IMG/VR virus record: IMGVR_UViG_3300021602_000003
Location: 32,001-96,000 of that record
From: a virus
Reading direction: 5' to 3' (one strand)
DNA: 64,000 nt
Part shown: positions 1,783-60,678 of the stretch, in pieces
Position numbering within the stretch: the stretch's first letter is position 1
How the letters are laid out: every line of letters starts with the position of its first letter
Position numbers and translations under genes: made by a program
The notes under the pieces: model-generated
The model's input: the letters and a program-made list of their open reading frames with translations, nothing else
Told to the model about the DNA's origin: nothing
Databases searched by the model: none

Positions 1783-2031
1783 AGAGTGGATCCAGCAAAC
1801 CAAAATACATCGAAAGATGACTATGTCGTTGCTTAAAATATATATAATGGAGGGGAAACCTAACATATGTATTAACGAACTCGGTGGAGCTATCTCGAAT
1901 GAGTAGCGTTGAAATCGAGTAAGTGTGTAACAAACCACACGGGCAGTGGTAAACACGTCCAAAACGGCGGTAAGGCTTCGTTAGCAATATATGGTTCTTC
2001 GGAACAGCAATATTGTCCCTTACACCACTCT
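1783..2031 (+). ncRNA. CAGCAA-stem RNA 1 (long, multi-hairpin; Y-RNA-like candidate)
   Basis: AGAGTGG(1783-89) pairs CCACTCT(2025-31); TCCAGCAA follows the 5' strand; internal CATC-GAAA-GATG and GTTC-TTCG-GAAC tetraloop hairpins; own promoter. Confidence 0.7.
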
Positions 2032-2104: not shown

Positions 2105-2199
2105 AGATTAGTTACAGCAATTAAAAAATACTGCACTAGGTAACGAAAGTTATCGAACCTTTCCGGAGGGGAAAGCAAAAACTCGCCAAAAGCTAATCT
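2105..2199 (+). ncRNA. CAGCAA-stem RNA 2
   Basis: AGATTAGTT pairs AGCTAATCT; ACAGCAA after 5' strand; internal GGTAAC-GAAA-GTTATC and CTTTCC..GGAAAG hairpins. Confidence 0.7.
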
Positions 2200-2215: not shown

Positions 2216-2319
2216 AAGATCGTTTCAGCAATAAAATCTTAAAGCCAAACCAGTGGACCGGTTCGATTCCGGGTTATTAGTGTAACGGTAGCACACAGGT
2301 AAAAAAGAAAAGCGATCTT
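2216..2319 (+). ncRNA. CAGCAA-stem RNA 3, circularly permuted tRNA mimic (YrlA-like)
   Basis: AAGATCGTT pairs AGCGATCTT; T-arm CCGG-TTCGATT-CCGG (2258-72) precedes D-arm TAGTGTAACGGTAGCAC (2278-94). Confidence 0.8.
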
Positions 2320-2325
2320 GATTAA

Positions 2326-2361
2326 AGAATTTGAACAGCAATCACGTAAATTAACAATTCT
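2326..2361 (+). promoter_or_regulatory. minimal CAGCAA-stem element in 5' UTR of Ro-like gene (putative operator)
   Basis: AGAATT..ACAGCAA..AATTCT directly before AAGGAG RBS (2363-68) and ATG 2377. Confidence 0.6.
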
Positions 2362-2376: not shown

Positions 2377-3816
2377 ATGACAACATTATTTGAAGCAGTA
2401 AACACAACAGCAGTAACAGCCAATGGCGCCGTTACAAACGCATCCTCGTTAAACAAGAACGTGGACTTATTTTTCTTGGCCGGCGCAAGCCGTGGCAAGG
2501 ATATTACACCTACCTTCGTTGGTGCGATGGTAGAAGATTCCGAAGTGGCAATTCGTGTCCTTGAATGGGCACGTGATGCACGTGGCGGAGCAGGTGAACG
2601 TGAAACTTTCCGTAAGTTGTTCGCTTATGTTTTGAAGACTGAACCAGCATTGGCTACTCGCCTGTTGGCAAAGGTTCCGGAACTTGGTCGTTGGGACGAC
2701 TTGTTTGTTGTATTTGGTTCTCCGTTAGAGCGTGACGCTCTGCGCTTAATTGCTGCAGGATTGAAGGATGCAGCAACACAAGGCCTTTGCGCTAAGTGGT
2801 TGCCACGTCAAGGTGCAGAAGCGAACAAGATTCGCTCGTACTTGAAGTTGACTCCAAAGGAGTATCGTAAGTTACTCGTTGGTCTGTCCAACACAGTTGA
2901 ACAGAAGATGTGTGCCCGCGAATGGGATGGAATTGTGTACCCGCATGTTCCGTCTGTTGCAGCAGGTCGCTACCAGAAGGCTTTCTTGAAGCACGACCCG
3001 AAGGGTTATGCCGACTACAAGGCTAAGTTGGTTACAGGCGAAGCTAAGATCAACGCCGCTGCGGTTTACCCGTACGACGTTATCCGTTCGTTAAACAACG
3101 GAGATGCTACTGTTGCTAACGCACAGTGGAAGGCTTTGCCAAACTACTTAGAAGGTTCGGACGAAAACATCCTACCGGTTGTTGACGTTTCGGGTTCTAT
3201 GGGTGGTGTTGCTGTATCCGGTAGCGTAACTGCTATGGACGTTGCAATTTCTTTGGGATTGTACACATCCGAACGCATGGGTGGTGTGTTTAAGGACCAG
3301 TTCGTTACTTTCTCCGGTGCACCAGAAATGCTGCACTTGAAGGGTGACTTAGGTCAGCGTTACGCTCAGATGGCTCGTTCCGACTGGGGTATGAACACTG
3401 ACTTAGGTGCAGTATTCAAGTTAATCTTGAATGCAGCAGTGAAGAGCAAGGTTGACCAGAAGGAAATGCCGACAAAGATCTTGATCTTGTCTGACATGGA
3501 ATTCGACGCTTGTGTAACAACAGGTGGTAGCGGTGTGCGCCGAAGCTACAATTCGACAGGTGGATCTGCAGTGAGCGTAAGCGCAATGGAGTTCATCGAG
3601 AAGGAATATGCGGCAGCTGGTTACAAGGTTCCGCAGGTTGTGTTCTGGAACCTGAATGGGAGAAGTGGAAACTCGCCTGTCACTTATAATAAAATTGGGA
3701 CTGCATTAGTAAGTGGATTCTCCCCTTCTATTGTGAAAAGTGTATTAGGCGGCGAAGAAATGACACCCATTTCGATAATGTTAAAGACTGTAATGATAAA
3801 GAAATATGATTTCTAA
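2377..3816 (+). CDS. Ro60/TROVE-like protein with C-terminal vWA domain (DUF2828-type)
   Basis: RDARGGAGER, ELGRWDDL, AKWLPR, VPSVA motifs; vWA MIDAS DVSGS, TDLGAVF, ILSDMEFD, VFWNL; high-expression codon usage. Confidence 0.85.
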   Translation: MTTLFEAVNTTAVTANGAVTNASSLNKNVDLFFLAGASRGKDITPTFVGAMVEDSEVAIRVLEWARDARGGAGERETFRKLFAYVLKTEPALATRLLAKVPELGRWDDLFVVFGSPLERDALRLIAAGLKDAATQGLCAKWLPRQGAEANKIRSYLKLTPKEYRKLLVGLSNTVEQKMCAREWDGIVYPHVPSVAAGRYQKAFLKHDPKGYADYKAKLVTGEAKINAAAVYPYDVIRSLNNGDATVANAQWKALPNYLEGSDENILPVVDVSGSMGGVAVSGSVTAMDVAISLGLYTSERMGGVFKDQFVTFSGAPEMLHLKGDLGQRYAQMARSDWGMNTDLGAVFKLILNAAVKSKVDQKEMPTKILILSDMEFDACVTTGGSGVRRSYNSTGGSAVSVSAMEFIEKEYAAAGYKVPQVVFWNLNGRSGNSPVTYNKIGTALVSGFSPSIVKSVLGGEEMTPISIMLKTVMIKKYDF

Positions 3817-4592
3817 TCAGTAATCTTTTCTACACGCCATTGTTTCTTATGTGTCGACTTACTTCTTTCTGCTTCGTAAAGATTACCGGCACATAAGGAA
3901 TTATCCCTGGCGAATTCTAAAACAGATGATGGAAAATATTCGATATTATTAATTATATCGATTATTTTCCATTTCTTATTATTATAGCCCGGGTGGCCTT
4001 GCATTGTCAGGGATTGTTTATTGCATGATTCGGCAGATCGTATTTTCCCTAAATTTATATTACTAAGAAATTCTTTGGTCTTTTCTGTATGTGGTTTTCC
4101 TGGTTTGCCTTTATTTTGGCTGGGTCGTGATATGCCGGCCCGCCCTATTAATGCCTGAGATATTTTTTGTCTATGTTCTGTTGTTTTAGGTTTAGATACC
4201 CCTGTATGTAGATATTTCGCGGATTCTGCAGAAAATATTCTGCATATTTCAAATTGTCTTGCAGTTAATTTCCTGCATTGATTTGATGATTTTCGCATAA
4301 ATTGGGCCATGGCAGATTTCATTTTATATTGTATATCGGAATTAAAACATTTAGTCAATAGTAGATGTGCTATAAAATGCTCTCTAGCAGTTAAAATTAC
4401 AAAATTATTTTTATCTTTCTTTTGCTCGTTGGTACATATACATGCCGGTAATATATGATGTAATTCTGTATATCCATACTGGTTATGTAAAATTTTATAC
4501 TCCTTCTGTCTCTTGGTATATTGTCCCCTCTCTAAAATTTTATTATTACACAATTTTAAATACCATTTTAAATACTTATTTTGTATTGACAT
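3813..4592 (-). CDS. HNH homing endonuclease with NUMOD3 repeats
   Basis: ELHHILP..N.VILTAREHFIAHLLL; HTEKTKEFLS-type repeats. Confidence 0.85.
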   Translation of the reverse strand: MSIQNKYLKWYLKLCNNKILERGQYTKRQKEYKILHNQYGYTELHHILPACICTNEQKKDKNNFVILTAREHFIAHLLLTKCFNSDIQYKMKSAMAQFMRKSSNQCRKLTARQFEICRIFSAESAKYLHTGVSKPKTTEHRQKISQALIGRAGISRPSQNKGKPGKPHTEKTKEFLSNINLGKIRSAESCNKQSLTMQGHPGYNNKKWKIIDIINNIEYFPSSVLEFARDNSLCAGNLYEAERSKSTHKKQWRVEKITD

Positions 4593-4674: not shown

Positions 4675-4702
4675 TTGACATGCATATTGTTTATGTTATA
4701 AT
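4675..4702 (+). promoter_or_regulatory. sigma70-type promoter of ncRNA/tRNA cluster
   Basis: TTGACA-N16-TATAAT with extended -10 TG. Confidence 0.75.
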
Positions 4703-4725: not shown

Positions 4726-4806
4726 AGAATGGTTACTGCCTTCACTTAGATCAGACCCTTAGAAAAATAAATAATCGTGCATTGCTGTCCCTTTGCACAC
4801 CATTCT
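4726..4806 (+). ncRNA. variant stem RNA (CTGCC instead of CAGCA)
   Basis: AGAATGGT pairs ACCATTCT; 3' end TGTCCCTT..ACACCAYTCTG shared with RNA 1. Confidence 0.55.
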
Positions 4807-5316: not shown

Positions 5317-5428
5317 AGTATAGTTTCAGCAAAATAAAAATCTTTTCATAAAAGAACGGTCGCGGTTCGAATCCGTGGTTCCCCGAAAGAGGAATTAGTG
5401 TAATGGTAGCATGTTAAAAAGCTATACT
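5317..5428 (+). ncRNA. CAGCAA-stem RNA 5, circularly permuted tRNA mimic (YrlA-like)
   Basis: AGTATAGTT pairs AGCTATACT; T-arm CGCGG-TTCGAAT-CCGTG (5361-77), acceptor-like stem closed by GAAA (5378-95), then D-arm TAGTGTAATGGTAGCAT (5396-5412). Confidence 0.85.
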
Positions 5429-5433
5429 GAAAT

Positions 5434-5522
5434 GGAAGATGATTTATGCAGGTGTATAACACTGCTTCGAAAACAGTTGGGGTCGGCAACGGCCTGGGGT
5501 TCGATACCCCCATCTTCCTCCA
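5434..5522 (+). tRNA. tRNA-Ser(CGA)
   Basis: GGAAGAT/ATCTTCC-T-CCA; TT-CGA-AA loop; long variable arm GGTCG-GCAA-CGGCC. Confidence 0.85.
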
Positions 5523-5871: not shown

Positions 5872-6351
5872 ATGTCATACAATTTTACATTTTTTTGGCA
5901 GAATAGATCGCCATTTTCAAATTGGTATCCTAGCATTTTTACGCACAACGGTATTACTTTTTCACGAGGTGAGCAATACATGATGTACCAAAAAGCCATT
6001 ATGTTCGGCGACGTTAATACTGCTCACGCTATTTTATTGACCGGTAATCCTAAAGAACAAAAAGATTTAGGTAGAATGGTAGCTAACTATGATGAGGCAA
6101 CCTGGTCAGCAAAAAGGGTAGGCATAATGGTGGAAGGGTTATTTGAAAAATTTAATCAAAATCCTTTATTAAAAGAAGCATTATTGAATACAGGCGATAC
6201 TATTATTGTTGAAGCAAGCCCCGTTGATAGAATATGGGGTATTGGTCTTACCGAAGATGACCCACGTGCATTAGATCAAACAACTTGGCAAGGTCAGAAT
6301 TTACTAGGCATTACTTTAATGCAAGTTAGAGATGCAATCAGAAAACTTTAA
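5872..6351 (+). CDS. NADAR (YbiA-like) family protein
   Basis: PFSNWY, EQYMMYQKA, KFNQN..L..LLNTG, EASPVDRIWGIG, GQNLLG. Confidence 0.92.
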   Translation: MSYNFTFFWQNRSPFSNWYPSIFTHNGITFSRGEQYMMYQKAIMFGDVNTAHAILLTGNPKEQKDLGRMVANYDEATWSAKRVGIMVEGLFEKFNQNPLLKEALLNTGDTIIVEASPVDRIWGIGLTEDDPRALDQTTWQGQNLLGITLMQVRDAIRKL

Positions 6352-6805
6352 AGAAAAATTAGAGATGGGGATAGACGCAGAAAATCTGGTCTATCCATAC
6401 TTAGTAGCACATAACAGCTATGTAGAAGACCTTCGCCAGCAAAAACATGGTGAATTTGCGGGACCATGTTTATGTGGCACTGAAGGGCGATTAGTTCTGC
6501 CAGATTTTGCAGTCTATAACAAAAATCCTACCAAAGGTACATTTGCAGTAGATGTCAAATCTAAAAATTCTATATATACAATAAATGGAAAGAAATGTTT
6601 TACAGTAGATGACAAGTATGAGCAATATAAGAAAGCCACTGAGATTAAGCGTTTAGATTATTTGGCTATTATATTCCTGTACGAAAATAGAATGTATATG
6701 TATAAAGAATCCGAATGTGGCGGTATGCATCAGTATACCCCTAGCTCATATGGCAACGGCCGAGTATATTATTTCGAGTTTGATAAATCAAAGATGGTAT
6801 ATTGA
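6332..6805 (+). CDS. putative PD-(D/E)XK nuclease-fold protein
   Basis: G..AE..V, LPDF, VDVKSK. Confidence 0.55.
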   Translation: MQSENFKEKLEMGIDAENLVYPYLVAHNSYVEDLRQQKHGEFAGPCLCGTEGRLVLPDFAVYNKNPTKGTFAVDVKSKNSIYTINGKKCFTVDDKYEQYKKATEIKRLDYLAIIFLYENRMYMYKESECGGMHQYTPSSYGNGRVYYFEFDKSKMVY

Positions 6806-7491
6806 TGTCCGGGAATTTTTGTATATATCACTATTTAAGAAACGATAATACTCCATATTATGTTGGCCGGGGTTCTTATACTCGCCCGTACGAGAAACAT
6901 AATGGTACAGCATCGACACCAAAAGATAAATCTAAAATTCTTATTATTGCAACTGATATAGATTTCTTAACATCTAAAGCGATGGAAATATTTTGGATTG
7001 CAATATATGGAAGAAAAGATAACGGTACAGGTATATTAAATAATAAAACAGATGGAGGCGAAGGCGCCACCGGATACAAGCACACAGCCGAACATAAGAA
7101 ATATATAAGCGAATTGCAGGCAGGCTGCAAAGCATCTGATAAGACAAGAAAGAAGATATCATTATCGAAAATAGGATCGAATAATCCTATGTATGGAAAA
7201 ACTAGTCCAATGAAAGATAAACATCATACTCCTGAAGTATGTAAAAGATTGAGTGAAATTAATATAGGGAAACTGCAATCTGATGCAGCAAAACAGAAAA
7301 ATAGCGATGCACATATCGGGAAGAAGAAATCTGTAGAAACTAGATTAAGAATGAGCAAACCAAAATCGGTTATAACACGGCAACGGATGAGCAAACCAAA
7401 AGAAACCACGATATGTCCTCATTGTAATAAGATAGGTGGAAAACCTGCAATGGAAAGATGGCATCTCGATAAGTGTAAGGATAAAAAATGA
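6805..7491 (+). CDS. GIY-YIG-like homing endonuclease with NUMOD3 repeats
   Basis: IYHYLR..TPYYVGRG, YGRKD.GTGIL.NKTDGGEG, C-terminal CPHC..RWH. Confidence 0.85.
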   Translation: MSGNFCIYHYLRNDNTPYYVGRGSYTRPYEKHNGTASTPKDKSKILIIATDIDFLTSKAMEIFWIAIYGRKDNGTGILNNKTDGGEGATGYKHTAEHKKYISELQAGCKASDKTRKKISLSKIGSNNPMYGKTSPMKDKHHTPEVCKRLSEINIGKLQSDAAKQKNSDAHIGKKKSVETRLRMSKPKSVITRQRMSKPKETTICPHCNKIGGKPAMERWHLDKCKDKK

Positions 7492-59898: not shown

Positions 59899-60678
59899 AT
59901 GTACAAAAATATTAAATTAGCTATAAGGAAATTTAAACATTGGTTTAAATTTCAACCTCCTGGGTCAATGACTTCGAAAGGGTGGCGTCTTTTTGAAAAA
60001 GAATTTAGCGAAAAGGCGCCAATCCGATATTGGTTTAAAACAAAGTTTAGAAGAAATATCGTACTACCAATAATATGGAAGTATGAAGCTATCGATCAAT
60101 GGATCCGACATCGTACATATGACAAATATCATGTCGTTAAAACAGGACTGAAGCCTGGATATTACGATATAGATACACTAATGTTACATTCTAACTTCAA
60201 CATGTTGAAAGACTTTGTTGAAGTCGAGCAAGCAATACACACATATTGGTGGTCGGATGAGTGTAAGAATGCAAGTTGGTTTGAAAAGCATATGCCATTT
60301 TATCGAACATTTTATCCTTTCCGACGACCCGAGTTAGGTATCAAACATCTAGAATGGGCGGCTACACTCGACGATCCATCTTTACCAGTGCATGAAAGGT
60401 GTGACAGCCAGGCCGTTTTTGCTAGAGAAACTCTATTATTGTATAGATGGTGGGTGAATGAACGACCAGCAAGAGAAAAAGAAAAATATGTCGAATATAA
60501 TGATCAAGGTCTGGGTTCATTGGGTTGTTTTGATGATGATTTCGACAGAGAAGCCGATGACTATAAAGATCATATAAAATCTATGACATCACGTCAGAAT
60601 AAAGAAGAAGAGTGGCAACAAGAAGACGACGACATGCTTGTTCGCCTTGTTAAGGTGCGCCGCGGATTATGGACTTAA
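59899..60678 (+). CDS. hypothetical protein (likely leaderless)
   Basis: The track's TTG start is the -35 box (TTGACA-N17-TATTAT); ATG 59899 in frame. Confidence 0.7.
   Translation: MYKNIKLAIRKFKHWFKFQPPGSMTSKGWRLFEKEFSEKAPIRYWFKTKFRRNIVLPIIWKYEAIDQWIRHRTYDKYHVVKTGLKPGYYDIDTLMLHSNFNMLKDFVEVEQAIHTYWWSDECKNASWFEKHMPFYRTFYPFRRPELGIKHLEWAATLDDPSLPVHERCDSQAVFARETLLLYRWWVNERPAREKEKYVEYNDQGLGSLGCFDDDFDREADDYKDHIKSMTSRQNKEEEWQQEDDDMLVRLVKVRRGLWT

What the first reader, a model, noticed from the sequence alone, without database searches (positions are those of the whole stretch)
2216..2319. Second permuted tRNA mimic with collapsed acceptor stem and a Gly-like GCC-AA remnant
Seen in sequence: GCCAA-ACCAG-TGGA-CCGGTTCGATTCCGG, then only GTTAT before the D-arm TAGTGTAACGGTAGCAC-A-CAGGT. 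CAGGT can pair with ACCAG (4/5) as an anticodon stem opened at the loop. Inference: it derives from a tRNA (possibly Gly-GCC) permuted at the anticodon loop and resembles an anticodon-cleaved tRNA. It is distinct from the 5317 copy in sequence and acceptor length.
Basis: partly seen in the sequence, partly recalled or inferred. Interest (0 to 1): 0.75.

Follow-up and report, generated by a model that had tools for sequence, protein, structure and literature searches.

The report
Acceptor-less tRNA-mimic partner RNA of phage Ro60-like protein
This 104-base stretch is a small non-coding RNA gene of a large phage: a conserved "handle" that most likely binds the Ro60-like protein encoded just downstream, carrying only the elbow (T and D arms) of a tRNA. 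It belongs to a widespread RNA family that I found in neither Rfam nor the papers searched.

Summary
Window 2216-2319 (+) holds a 7-bp closing stem, an unpaired TTTCAGCAAT motif, a 5-position anticodon-stem-like helix, a T arm, a 4-nt linker where the acceptor stem would be, and a D arm. A covariance model built from related loci finds 24 strong copies (53-113 bits). All lie on the strand of a DUF2828/DUF7788 gene, and 16 of 21 base pairs show compensatory changes. The acceptor hairpin ranges from 0 to about 8 bp across copies, so "collapsed acceptor" is a real natural variant.

The downstream gene (2377-3816) folds as Ro60 (TROVE + vWA). The element is therefore best read as a YrlA-like Y RNA: the handle binds the Ro-like protein and the tRNA elbow acts as an adaptor. 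It is one of six handle RNAs in this locus. One of them is a cargo-less hairpin next to the gene's ribosome-binding site.

It is not a member of Rfam YrlA (RF02553, no hit) and it lacks the YrlA CGAA motif. The "Gly-GCC remnant" and "cleaved tRNA" readings are not supported.

This scan has already noted the same RNA family on other DNA (at least 154 genomes). I found no published description. Binding and function are inferred, not shown.

The parts
2216..2222 (+). P1, 5' strand of the closing stem (AAGATCG)
   Evidence: Pairs perfectly with 2313-2319. Six of seven P1 pairs covary in relatives, with 98% of cells paired.
2223..2232 (+). Handle motif TTTCAGCAAT, unpaired (core CAGCAA at 2226-2231)
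   Evidence: The core C-[A/C]-G-C-A is invariant or nearly so in all aligned copies. The same motif follows a 7-bp stem in five other elements of this locus.
2233..2248 (+). A/U-rich 5' linker ending in a conserved AA (2247-2248).
   Evidence: AA directly 5' of P2 is present in 20 of 23 distinct copies. The three bases before it vary.
2249..2253 (+). P2, 5' strand (ACCAG), equivalent to tRNA positions 39-43
   Evidence: Pairs with 2296-2300 at 4 of 5 positions. All five positions show compensatory changes in relatives.
2254..2257 (+). Variable-loop equivalent (TGG, plus A2257 if the T stem is read as 4 bp)
   Evidence: Length is 3-6 nt in relatives. The 15/48 Levitt-type combination is G-C or A-U in 11 of 23 copies, but A/G in this copy.
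2257..2273 (+). T arm: stem (A)CCGG/CCGG(G), loop TTCGATT (2262-2268)
   Evidence: GGTTCGAnTCC is invariant in A1. Three of five stem pairs covary.
2274..2277 (+). TTAT linker in place of the acceptor stem
   Evidence: In relatives this segment is 3-6 nt (L001, L002, L004, L005, L007, L009, L019), a 3-bp hairpin (L013), or a 6-8 bp capped hairpin (L006, L008, L010, L015, L017, L020, L026, L027, window 5317 copy).
2278..2295 (+). U8-A9 equivalent (TA), D arm GTGT-AACGGTA-GCAC, and A26 equivalent
   Evidence: TAGT, the D-loop AA, GG and the final A are invariant in A1. D-stem pairs covary.
2296..2300 (+). P2, 3' strand (CAGGT), equivalent to tRNA positions 27-31
2301..2312 (+). A-rich 3' linker (AAAAAAGAAAAG)
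   Evidence: An A-rich run of 6-14 nt is present in all copies, usually starting with CAA.
2313..2319 (+). P1, 3' strand (CGATCTT), followed by conserved GA (2320-2321)
   Evidence: The 3' flank (C)TGA is conserved in A1.
2377..3816 (+). Ro60-like protein gene (479 aa; Pfam DUF2828 + DUF7788; MIDAS motif DxSxS..T..D conserved), the inferred protein partner
   Evidence: Pfam hits 3e-26 and 2.5e-50; phrog_850. The AF2 model (pLDDT 80) gives Ro60/TROVE structures as all top 13 Foldseek PDB hits. D270, S272, S274, T341 and D373 are invariant.
2326..2361 (+). Cargo-less handle hairpin (AGAATT..GAACAGCAAT..AATTCT), ending 2 nt before the AGGAG ribosome-binding site. Inferred autoregulatory operator.
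   Evidence: In related loci, either a mini-hairpin with a covarying stem or the tRNA-like RNA itself abuts the ribosome-binding site. Its own fold is weak, -1.3 kcal/mol.
2105..2199 (+). Sister handle RNA B (AGATTAG / TTACAGCAA / CTAATCT) with two-hairpin cargo
   Evidence: R1 38.4 bits; strict handle scan; fold z = -2.5; weak full-length match to RF01414.
1783..2031 (+). Sister handle RNA A (AGAGTGG / ATCCAGCAA / CCACTCT), about 250 nt, behind promoter-like TTGACT-17-TATAAT at 1735-1763
5317..5428 (+). Second tRNA-like handle RNA, with a V hairpin and a GAAA-capped acceptor hairpin, inside the tRNA cluster
   Evidence: R1 96.7 bits. The MFE fold shows P1, V, T, AS and D.
4726..4806 (+). Variant handle RNA (AGAATGG / TTACTGCCT / CCATTCT) behind a 12-of-12 consensus promoter at 4675-4702
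   Evidence: It is not found by the strict CAGCAA scan, so membership is tentative.

Best explanation
The element is a small non-coding RNA of the Y-RNA kind, closest to bacterial YrlA.

Its two ends pair into a 7-bp stem. This stem, the adjacent unpaired YYHC(A/C)GCAA motif and an A-rich 3' strand form a 'handle'. The handle most likely binds the Ro60-like (TROVE + vWA) protein encoded 58 nt downstream.

The handle carries a tRNA-like module as cargo: an anticodon-stem-like helix, a T arm and a D arm that should dock into a tRNA elbow. In this copy the acceptor stem is replaced by a 4-nt linker, so only the elbow and the anticodon-like stem are presented.

By analogy with Ro60/Y RNA particles, the RNA would tether the Ro-like ring to a protein that recognises the tRNA elbow. 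That protein is most likely a tRNA processing, repair or decay enzyme. The RNA may also gate the ring's access to other RNAs.

Several handle RNAs with different cargos (1783-2031, 2105-2199, 5317-5428) would compete for the same protein. A cargo-less handle abutting the ribosome-binding site would let free protein repress its own translation.

Shown here: the structure, its conservation, its genomic linkage to the protein gene, and the Ro60 fold of the protein.
Inferred: RNA expression and ends, protein binding, elbow formation, the identity of the tethered factor, and autoregulation.
For: 1. Structure under selection.
- 24 strong model hits of 53-113 bits.
- 94% of cells paired against 33-40% in slid controls, with 16 of 21 pairs compensatory.
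- The same picture holds on a structure-blind alignment.

2. tRNA signature nucleotides are invariant: U8, A14, G18-G19, A21, G53, T54, T55, C56, A58, C61. The 15/48 pair is G-C or A-U in 11 of 23 copies.

3. Linkage to the protein gene.
- All 75 model hits in the 32 protein-anchored loci and the window lie on the gene's strand.
- In mycobacteriophage Lumos and coliphage HY02 the only genome-wide hit lies 0.1 and 0.9 kb downstream of the homologous gene on the same strand. These proteins are 33% and 43% identical to the window's.
- In a protein-blind DNA-pattern scan, 6 of 7 contigs with a model-confirmed RNA also carry the gene. The background rate is 695 of 50,697 phage records.

4. The protein has a Ro60 fold. 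The top 13 PDB matches are all Ro60/TROVE, E from 8e-9 to 6e-5, and the MIDAS residues are invariant.

5. The handle is shared. A strict stem-plus-CAGCAA scan finds 5 sites in the 166-kb record against 0.53 in shuffles, and 4 of them cluster around the gene on one strand.

6. A handle, either as a mini-hairpin or as the tRNA-like RNA itself, directly abuts the ribosome-binding site in 18 of the 25 gene starts inspected, the window and relatives down to 71% protein identity.

7. Published precedent. YrlA has the same T-AS-D order, a closed acceptor stem of variable length, and the Ro-binding stem in place of the anticodon loop. Its effector is proposed to recognise the elbow (PMC4201824; bioRxiv 10.1101/312249). 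Phage Ro60 binds phage-encoded Yrl RNAs and host PNPase (PMC12135203).

8. RNA-repair context. An RNA ligase gene (PF09414) ends at window position 86. The same ligase type sits directly upstream of the homologue in phage GAP32, and an RtcB-type ligase lies nearby in Listeria phage LMSP-25.
Against: - There are no expression, end-mapping or binding data.
- No terminator-like site lies nearby, and only a weak own promoter-like site is present (2183-2210). The mature RNA would therefore have to be processed from a longer transcript.
- The Rfam YrlA model does not match, and the YrlA GNCGAAN0-1G/CGAA motif is absent. Ro binding cannot be transferred from YrlA by homology of the binding site.
- This copy folds no better than shuffled sequence. 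Its T stem has an A-G end pair and its 15/48 combination is not canonical.
- Strong tRNA-like hits are missing within 4 kb of the gene in L018, L021, L024, L025 and L028-L032 (8 of the 32 related loci), and in Listeria phage LMSP-25 genome-wide. The cargo is therefore not obligatory.
- Without an acceptor stem, many tRNA enzymes (CCA-adding enzyme, aminoacyl-tRNA synthetases, and RNase P cleavage) cannot act. This narrows the set of candidate effectors but does not identify one.
Confidence: 0.7

Rival explanations
1. Purely cis-acting leader. The element is part of the 5' untranslated region of the Ro60-like mRNA and only regulates that gene. It would act as an operator or sensor, for example by binding a tRNA-recognising factor, and would not be a stable trans-acting RNA.
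For: - It lies 58 nt upstream of the start codon with no terminator between.
- In L005, L006, L009, L010 and L013 the 3' strand of the tRNA-like RNA's closing stem directly abuts the ribosome-binding site.
Against: - In this window a separate mini-hairpin occupies the position next to the ribosome-binding site.
- Sister copies lie 3 kb away in the tRNA cluster (5317-5428; L003:8362, L004:6839, L007:6739).
- In Lumos and HY02 the RNA lies downstream of the gene.
- Closing stems with conserved flanks (TAAAG...CTGA) look like discrete processed units.
Confidence: 0.1
2. Free-standing decoy or sponge. The tRNA elbow titrates or inhibits a host tRNA-binding protein on its own. Candidates are a tRNA-targeting defence nuclease, a modification enzyme or RNase P. 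The Ro-like protein would serve only as a stabiliser, or not at all.
For: - The phage context includes tRNA genes and RNA-repair genes.
- The mimic has no anticodon loop and no 3' end, so it could bind elbow readers without being processed.
- YrlA is a substrate of TruB and DusA (PMC4201824).
Against: - Anticodon nucleases need the anticodon loop, which is absent here.
- The handle is as conserved as the tRNA-like part, and it occurs with quite different cargos and with no cargo. This points to the handle-binding protein as the common denominator.
- The RNA co-occurs with the Ro-like gene in 6 of 7 contigs found by a protein-blind scan.
Confidence: 0.12
3. tRNA relic or permuted tRNA precursor. 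The element is either a decaying or rearranged tRNA gene with no function of its own, or a circularly permuted pre-tRNA that is processed into a working tRNA.
For: - The T and D arms carry tRNA signature nucleotides.
- tRNA genes lie nearby.
- M. smegmatis YrlA, which has a 7-bp acceptor stem, is cut by RNase P and receives CCA (PMC4201824).
Against: - This copy has no acceptor stem and no anticodon loop, so no tRNA can be made from it.
- A pseudogene would not keep compensatory changes in four helices, including P1, which no tRNA has. These are kept between phages whose Ro-like proteins are only 47-52% identical to the window's, and P1 still closes perfectly in Lumos and HY02 at 33-43%.
Confidence: 0.03

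Closest known systems
Bacterial and mycobacteriophage YrlA Y RNAs bound by Ro60/Rsr (Chen et al. 2014, PMC4201824; structure in bioRxiv 10.1101/312249; Rfam RF02553)
   Same: - A non-coding RNA encoded next to, and on the strand of, a Ro60-fold gene.
- The 5' and 3' ends pair into a stem.
- A conserved single-stranded motif sits on the 5' side just above that stem.
- The tRNA-like module has T arm, acceptor segment and D arm in that order.
- The anticodon loop is replaced by the protein-binding stem.
- Acceptor-stem and variable-region lengths vary between species.
- Several Y-like RNAs occur per locus, sometimes beside tRNA genes.
   Different: - The partner protein matches Pfam DUF2828/DUF7788, not TROVE. 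The Ro60 fold is seen only by structure.
- The motif is YYHC(A/C)GCAA rather than GNCGAAN0-1G/CGAA.
- RF02553 gives no hit at E <= 10.
- In this copy the acceptor stem is absent altogether (4-nt linker). The papers I read describe stems of 6 bp or more, of variable length.
- A cargo-less handle sits at the gene's ribosome-binding site.
Thermus phage phiLo Ro60 with Yrl1/Yrl2 (PMC12135203; PDB 9KOP, 9L5Y)
   Same: - A phage-encoded Ro60-fold protein with two Y-like RNAs encoded directly upstream of its gene.
- It is the top structural match of the window's protein.
   Different: - The phiLo RNAs were identified by a stem-bulge-stem shape and the CGAA motif.
- No tRNA-like module is reported in the text I read.
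- Sequence identity of the proteins in the structural alignment is about 16-17%.
Dictyostelium Class I RNAs (Rfam RF01414; Kjellin et al. 2021, PMC7919456)
   Same: - A short stem joins the 5' and 3' ends.
- A conserved unpaired motif directly follows the 5' strand.
[quoted passage not shown]
- The Rfam consensus GaUcuC-CUUACAGCAAU...GagAuC-UG matches the handle of sister RNA 2105-2199 (AGAUUAG-UUACAGCAAU...CUAAUCU-G) over the full model length.
   Different: - The score is 18.9 bits against a gathering score of 41.5, and only the sister RNA is hit, not 2216-2319.
- Class I RNAs are 42-65 nt, eukaryotic, and reported as unique to Dictyostelia.
- Their known direct binder is the RRM protein Rnp1A/CIBP.
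- Whether any Dictyostelium DUF2828 protein binds them was not testable here.
Circularly permuted tRNA genes (for example Cyanidioschyzon merolae; cited in bioRxiv 10.1101/312249)
   Same: The 3' half (T arm) precedes the 5' half (D arm) on the DNA.
   Different: Permuted tRNA genes keep a full acceptor stem and an anticodon arm and mature into functional tRNAs. This element has neither.

Membership tests
YrlA (Y RNA-like A; Rfam RF02553) | Encoded within a few kb of a Ro60 orthologue, on the same strand | tested here: met
   The element lies 58 nt upstream of a Ro60-fold gene on the + strand. The same linkage is seen in the related IMG/VR loci, Lumos and HY02. However, the protein matches Pfam DUF2828/DUF7788 and not TROVE.
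YrlA (Y RNA-like A; Rfam RF02553) | tRNA-like domain in the order T arm, acceptor stem-loop, D arm, with tRNA signature nucleotides | tested here: met
   The T and D arms carry invariant tRNA signature nucleotides and covarying stems. In this copy the acceptor stem-loop is reduced to a 4-nt linker. It is present in the sister copy and in many relatives.
YrlA (Y RNA-like A; Rfam RF02553) | 5'/3' terminal stem in place of the anticodon loop | tested here: met
   P1 (2216-2222 with 2313-2319) has six of seven pairs covarying. P2 is equivalent to the anticodon stem.
YrlA (Y RNA-like A; Rfam RF02553) | GNCGAAN0-1G (CGAA) motif in the 5' strand of the Ro-binding module | tested here: not met
   There is no CGAA between P1 and P2. 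The conserved motif at that position is TTTCAGCAAT, with family consensus YYHC(A/C)GCAA.
YrlA (Y RNA-like A; Rfam RF02553) | Match to the curated covariance model at or above 69 bits | tested here: not met
   RF02553 finds nothing in the whole 166-kb record at E <= 10. It also does not appear in all-Rfam searches of the region at E <= 10.
YrlA (Y RNA-like A; Rfam RF02553) | Physical binding to Ro60/Rsr, and modification by tRNA enzymes (TruB, DusA) | not testable with these tools
   This needs immunoprecipitation, gel shifts and modification mapping.
Transfer RNA (Rfam RF00005) | Cloverleaf with a 7-bp acceptor stem, an anticodon arm, and the 5'-D-anticodon-T-3' order | tested here: not met
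   There is no ARAGORN call and no RF00005 hit, even at E <= 10. The acceptor stem and anticodon loop are absent and the order is permuted.
Dictyostelium Class I RNA (Rfam RF01414) | Match to the curated model at or above 41.5 bits; short terminal stem plus an 11-nt motif | tested here: not met
   There is no hit on 2216-2319. Sister RNA 2106-2200 scores 18.9 bits over the full model. The handle architecture and the ACAGCAA core are shared, so this is a resemblance and not membership.
Ro60 / TROVE + vWA proteins (for the partner gene) | HEAT-repeat ring plus a vWA domain with a MIDAS motif | tested here: met
   The AF2 model (pLDDT 80, pTM 0.75) matches Ro60 structures over its full length, with TM about 0.5 and E from 8e-9 to 6e-5. 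DxSxS, T and D are invariant. Sequence-level searches do not reach TROVE.

The most novel reading that the evidence does not exclude
The handle (a 7-bp stem plus unpaired ...ACAGCAA) marks a large, undescribed branch of Ro60/Y-RNA particles. The branch is built around DUF2828 proteins and spans very different phages. It may extend to eukaryotes, where Dictyostelium Class I RNAs carry the same handle and still have an uncharacterised pull-down partner. Within this branch, acceptor-less elbow-only cargos like this one would direct the Ro-like ring to an enzyme that reads the tRNA elbow. This could let the phage repair or clear tRNAs damaged by host defences.
Probability: 0.3. Interest if true: 0.85.

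Novelty: new variant of a known kind. Interest (0 to 1): 0.62.

Why it matters
Ro60 and its Y RNAs are an old puzzle. The ring protein is conserved from bacteria to humans, where it is a lupus and Sjogren autoantigen, yet the effector that the tRNA-like YrlA domain recruits is still unknown.

This locus makes three points.
- A very large phage protein family filed as 'unknown function' (DUF2828/DUF7788; homologues in 695 of 50,697 phage records) has the Ro60 fold and its own conserved partner RNAs.
- Nature has trimmed the tRNA mimic down to the elbow plus the anticodon-like stem. This says which part of the mimic is needed and narrows the list of possible effectors to elbow readers.
- Homologous systems exist in culturable phages of laboratory hosts: Felix O1-type coliphages such as HY02, and mycobacteriophage Lumos. 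The question is therefore directly testable.

The handle's likeness to the Class I RNAs of social amoebae, if it reflects homology, would give those RNAs a candidate protein partner.

Tried and rejected
- Rfam at gathering thresholds and at E <= 10 found no family at 2216-2319. RF02553 YrlA found nothing in the whole record.
- ARAGORN made no call here.
- A single-sequence fold was not informative. The z-score is -1.35, and the MFE pairs the D-arm region differently.
- A sequence search of the protein against PDB found nothing. NCBIfam found nothing. Only the fold search identified Ro60.
- My first loose regular-expression scan for stem-plus-motif in the genome was swamped by chance matches. 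I replaced it with a strict scan with shuffle controls.
Only 3 of 80 loci held the gene inside the stored flank. It became informative only after filtering with the covariance model and searching whole contigs.
- The T4 stable RNAs rnaC and rnaD, which also sit in a tRNA cluster, are not members. They give only a T-arm-sized match of 12.5 bits.
- The hits in Aeh1 (41.7 bits) and Citrobacter phage Ci1 (42.9 bits) overlap oddly long annotated tRNA features and have mismatched P1 and P2. I do not count them as secure members. The Campylobacter CP30A hit looks like two adjacent tRNAs.
- I could not test whether the Dictyostelium pull-down protein DDB_G0281243 is a DUF2828 protein. My one 'longer proteins' search returned plant and fungal DUF2828 proteins only.
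Full report
**What is there**

Window 2216-2319 (+ strand) reads as follows:
- AAGATCG (2216-2222).
- TTTCAGCAAT (2223-2232).
- An A/U-rich linker ending in GCCAA (to 2248).
- ACCAG (2249-2253).
- TGG(A).
- A T arm, (A)CCGG-TTCGATT-CCGG(G) (2257-2273).
- TTAT (2274-2277).
- TA plus a D arm, GTGT-AACGGTA-GCAC (2278-2294).
- A (2295).
- CAGGT (2296-2300).
- AAAAAAGAAAAG (2301-2312).
- CGATCTT (2313-2319).

The coordinates it gave also happen to be the two ends of a perfect 7-bp closing stem that its text does not mention. ARAGORN and Rfam's tRNA model do not call the element, which is expected because the T arm precedes the D arm. Folding this copy alone is uninformative (z = -1.35). The cloverleaf-like pairing costs 3-10 kcal/mol relative to the MFE.

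**Is it more than chance?**

The ORF 58 nt downstream (2377-3816, 479 aa) served as an anchor. It recovered 32 related IMG/VR loci with 40-95% protein identity.

A simple T-loop-then-D-arm expression already found look-alike elements just upstream of the gene in many of them.

I aligned ten of these (A1). RNAalifold recovered the closing stem, T stem and D stem with compensatory changes. I added the anticodon-stem-like helix by hand and built covariance model R1.

R1 finds 24 strong matches of 53-113 bits. They include this element (112.5 bits) and the 5317 copy (96.7 bits). All are on the strand of the gene.
- On 23 distinct model-aligned sequences, 94.2% of cells form standard pairs, against 33-40% when the 3' partners are slid.
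- 16 of 21 pairs show changes on both sides, in 117 cells.
- No shuffle out of 500 reaches these values.

That alignment is fitted to the model, so I repeated the count on the structure-blind MAFFT alignment. There, 89.6% of cells pair against 31-40% slid, and 13 of 21 pairs are compensatory.

It covaries at all five positions elsewhere, for example CCGGC/GCCGG, ACCGC/GCGGT and ACCGA/TTGGT.

The tRNA signature nucleotides are invariant: U8, A14, G18-G19, A21, G53, T54, T55, C56, A58 and C61. The 15/48 combination is G-C or A-U in 11 of 23 copies, though not in this one.

**The collapsed acceptor**

The segment between the T stem and U8 takes three forms across the family:
- 3-6 nt in this copy and in L001, L002, L004, L005, L007, L009 and L019.
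- A 3-bp hairpin in L013.
- A 6-8 bp capped hairpin in L006, L008, L010, L015, L017, L020, L026, L027, Lumos and the window's own 5317 copy (TTCCCC-GAAA-GAGGAA).

The acceptor arm is therefore dispensable, while the elbow-forming arms and the anticodon-like stem are kept. A 4-nt bridge from the end of the T stem to U8 seems geometrically plausible, because in tRNA those two points flank a single base-pair step. This is my inference and was not modelled.

**What the flanks say**

The feature shared by every copy is not the tRNA part. It is the 'handle': a 7-bp stem, 2-4 nt, unpaired C(A/C)GCA(A/T), and on the return strand an A-rich run, the stem, and G(A).

A strict scan for this handle finds 5 sites in the 166-kb record against 0.53 in shuffles. 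Four of them lie on the + strand at window 1783-2031, 2105-2199, 2216-2319 and 5317-5428.

Two looser members complete a set of six:
- 2326-2361, a cargo-less hairpin with a 6-bp stem.
- 4726-4806, with the variant motif CTGCCT.

Sibling first-stage notes on this window list the same six.

Promoter-like sites precede the arrays: 1735-1763 matches 11 of 12 positions and 4675-4702 matches 12 of 12. No terminator-like site separates the RNAs from the gene. A processed polycistronic transcript is therefore likely, as reported for M. smegmatis YrlA/YrlB (PMC4201824).

**The partner protein**

The ORF matches Pfam DUF2828 and DUF7788 and phrog_850 'RNA-binding protein', but not TROVE. A sequence search of PDB finds nothing.

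An AlphaFold2 model built from 19 homologues (pLDDT 80, pTM 0.75) gives Ro60/TROVE structures as its 13 best Foldseek matches. They include Thermus phage phiLo Ro60, D. radiodurans Rsr, and Xenopus and human Ro60, with E from 8e-9 to 6e-5 over the full length. The vWA MIDAS residues (D270, S272, S274, T341, D373) are invariant.

Homologues occur in 695 of 50,697 phage records from very different groups. Some mycobacteriophage entries are already labelled 'Ro-like RNA binding protein'. A survey of jumbo phages noted ROT/TROVE proteins 'with a tRNA-like partner' in cellular systems (PMC7824862).

**Linkage of RNA and protein**

- All 75 model hits in the 32 protein-anchored loci and the window are on the gene's strand.
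- In whole-genome searches, mycobacteriophage Lumos has a single hit of 68.5 bits, 100 nt downstream of its homologue. Its handle is GGACCCC/CACAGCAAT/GGGGTCC.
- Coliphage HY02 also has a single hit, 54.9 bits, 0.9 kb downstream. Its handle is AGACCGT/TTACAGCAAA/ACGGTCT.
- KVP40 has weaker copies 7-11 kb away on the same strand.
- As a protein-blind test, I scanned IMG/VR for a bare DNA pattern and kept only loci that R1 confirmed, which left seven contigs. Six of them carry the gene. The seventh is a 23-kb fragment estimated to be 7% complete.

**A likely operator**

Directly upstream of the ribosome-binding site, relatives down to 71% protein identity (18 of the 25 gene starts inspected, the window included) have one of two things:
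- a cargo-less handle hairpin with covarying stems (AGAATT/AATTCT, AGATTTA/TAAATCT, AGAATTA/TAATTCT, AGAATCA/TGATTCT), or
- the 3' end of the tRNA-like RNA itself.

In both cases ...TCTGA is followed by the AGGAG-type site. The hairpin is barely stable on its own, at -1.3 kcal/mol. This fits a site that a protein must hold closed. Independently of synteny, it ties the handle to this gene's product and suggests translational feedback. This is an inference.

**Most likely mechanism**

The architecture is that of bacterial YrlA:
- a T arm, an acceptor segment of variable length closed by a loop, and a D arm;
- the Ro-binding stem where the anticodon loop would be;
- an effector proposed to read the elbow (PMC4201824; bioRxiv 10.1101/312249).

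Phage phiLo Ro60 binds two upstream-encoded Yrl RNAs and host PNPase (PMC12135203).

I therefore read 2216-2319 as a partner RNA of the Ro60-like protein. The handle anchors the protein. The elbow-only tRNA mimic docks a protein that recognises the tRNA elbow and may gate the ring.

The RNA-repair context is suggestive. An RNA ligase (PF09414 plus a PHA02142 OB fold) ends at window 86. The same ligase type is the immediate upstream neighbour of the homologue in GAP32, and an RtcB-type ligase lies nearby in Listeria phage LMSP-25.

Expression, binding, elbow formation and the effector are all untested.

**What it is not**

- It is not a tRNA or a tRNA precursor, because it has no acceptor stem and no anticodon loop.
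- It is not a decaying pseudogene, because four helices covary across phages whose Ro-like proteins are only about 50% identical to the window's.
- The 'Gly-GCC remnant' is not supported. Only the AA next to the helix is conserved, and the preceding triplet varies freely.
- The 'cleaved tRNA' picture is replaced by continuity into the handle.
- It is not a member of Rfam YrlA. RF02553 finds nothing in the record at E <= 10, and the CGAA motif is absent.
- The T4 RNAs rnaC and rnaD are unrelated.

**A resemblance worth recording**

The only Rfam model that touches this locus is RF01414, the Dictyostelium Class I RNA. It aligns over its full length to sister RNA 2106-2200 at 18.9 bits, below its 41.5-bit threshold.

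Its consensus GaUcuC-CUUACAGCAAU...GagAuC-UG is the same handle. Class I RNAs are described as a short terminal stem, an 11-nt motif next to its 5' strand and a variable remainder. They are thought to be unique to dictyostelids (PMC7919456). One of their pull-down partners, DDB_G0281243, has no known function (bioRxiv 10.1101/2020.04.05.026054).

DUF2828/DUF7788 proteins do exist in plants and fungi. Earlier notes of this scan made the same link. I could verify the motif match but not homology or a dictyostelid DUF2828 partner.

**Novelty and score**

The kind of system is known: a Ro60-fold protein with Y RNAs that mimic tRNA. New relative to what I could find in Rfam and in the searched literature are:
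- the DUF2828-linked handle family;
- its CAGCAA motif;
- the operator-like mini-handle;
- the acceptor-less elbow-only cargo that this finding describes.

This scan has already reported the same family on other DNA (208 notes in at least 154 genomes). The present element is therefore a further, structurally minimal member and not a first sighting. I rate it a new variant of a known kind, with interest 0.62.

Noticed in passing
window 5434-5518 (+): An 85-nt tRNA-like gene that ARAGORN misses. It scores 45.2 bits against Rfam tRNA-Sec, just under the 47-bit threshold. It has an 8-bp acceptor stem and a long variable arm, and its anticodon loop reads UUCGAAA, so it may be a class II tRNA with anticodon CGA. 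It folds with z = -3.4.
   Followed up: partly
window 1783-2031 (+), promoter-like site 1735-1763: A handle RNA of about 250 nt (AGAGTGG / ATCCAGCAA / CCACTCT) with a large multi-hairpin cargo, behind TTGACT-17-TATAAT. No Rfam family matches it.
   Followed up: partly
window 2105-2199 (+): A handle RNA with two hairpins as cargo (fold z = -2.5). It is the only element of the locus touched by an Rfam model, the Dictyostelium Class I RNA RF01414, at 18.9 bits over the full model length. The two share the stem, UUACAGCAAU and the terminal CUG.
   Followed up: partly
window 2326-2361 (+) and the 75 nt before the gene start in L001-L021: A cargo-less handle hairpin sits directly before the ribosome-binding site of the Ro60-like gene. 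It is conserved with covarying stems. In some loci its place is taken by the 3' end of the tRNA-like RNA. It looks like an autoregulatory operator.
   Followed up: partly
window 4726-4806 (+), promoter-like site 4675-4702: A handle-like RNA with the variant motif TTACTGCCT in place of CAGCAA, just before the first tRNA gene and behind a perfect TTGACA-16-TATAAT with an extended -10 TG.
   Followed up: no
window 3813-4592 (-): A homing-endonuclease-like ORF (phrog_655, HNH type; no Pfam hit) converges on the Ro60-like gene and overlaps its stop codon. A NUMOD3 protein (6802-7491) lies nearby, so homing endonucleases are dense around the tRNA/Y-RNA region.
   Followed up: no
L005:1652-3687: In this relative the match to the Ro60-like protein spans 2036 nt instead of about 1437. 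The gene therefore carries an insertion of about 600 nt, possibly an intron, an intein or a mobile endonuclease.
   Followed up: no
L001:2666-2776 and L003:3842-3952: In the closest relatives (92-93% protein identity) the upstream tRNA-like copy has T loop TGCGATT and D loop AACAGCA. U55 and G18, which pair in tRNA, have thus both changed. This could be a tertiary co-variation or the start of decay (79 bits against 112 here).
   Followed up: no
genome 31067-32086 (ends at window 86), + strand: An RNA ligase gene (Pfam RNA_ligase PF09414 plus a PHA02142 OB-fold domain) lies 1.7 kb upstream of the RNA array. The same ligase type directly precedes the DUF2828 gene in Cronobacter phage GAP32.
   Followed up: partly
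L040:8227-8348 (Aeromonas phage Aeh1) and L033:5512-5625 (Citrobacter phage Ci1): Oddly long annotated tRNA features (a 122-nt 'tRNA-Val' and a 114-nt 'tRNA-Pseudo') overlap weak hits of the handle/tRNA-like model. They may be misread handle RNAs or handle-tRNA composites.
   Followed up: no
window 60457-60521 (+): This is the fifth match of the strict handle scan (AATGAAC / GACCAGCAA / GTTCATT), far from the Ro-like locus. It is probably a chance match, given 0.5 expected per genome.
   Followed up: no
window 5872-6351 (+): A NADAR-domain protein (3e-52) lies directly after the tRNA/handle-RNA cluster.
   Followed up: no
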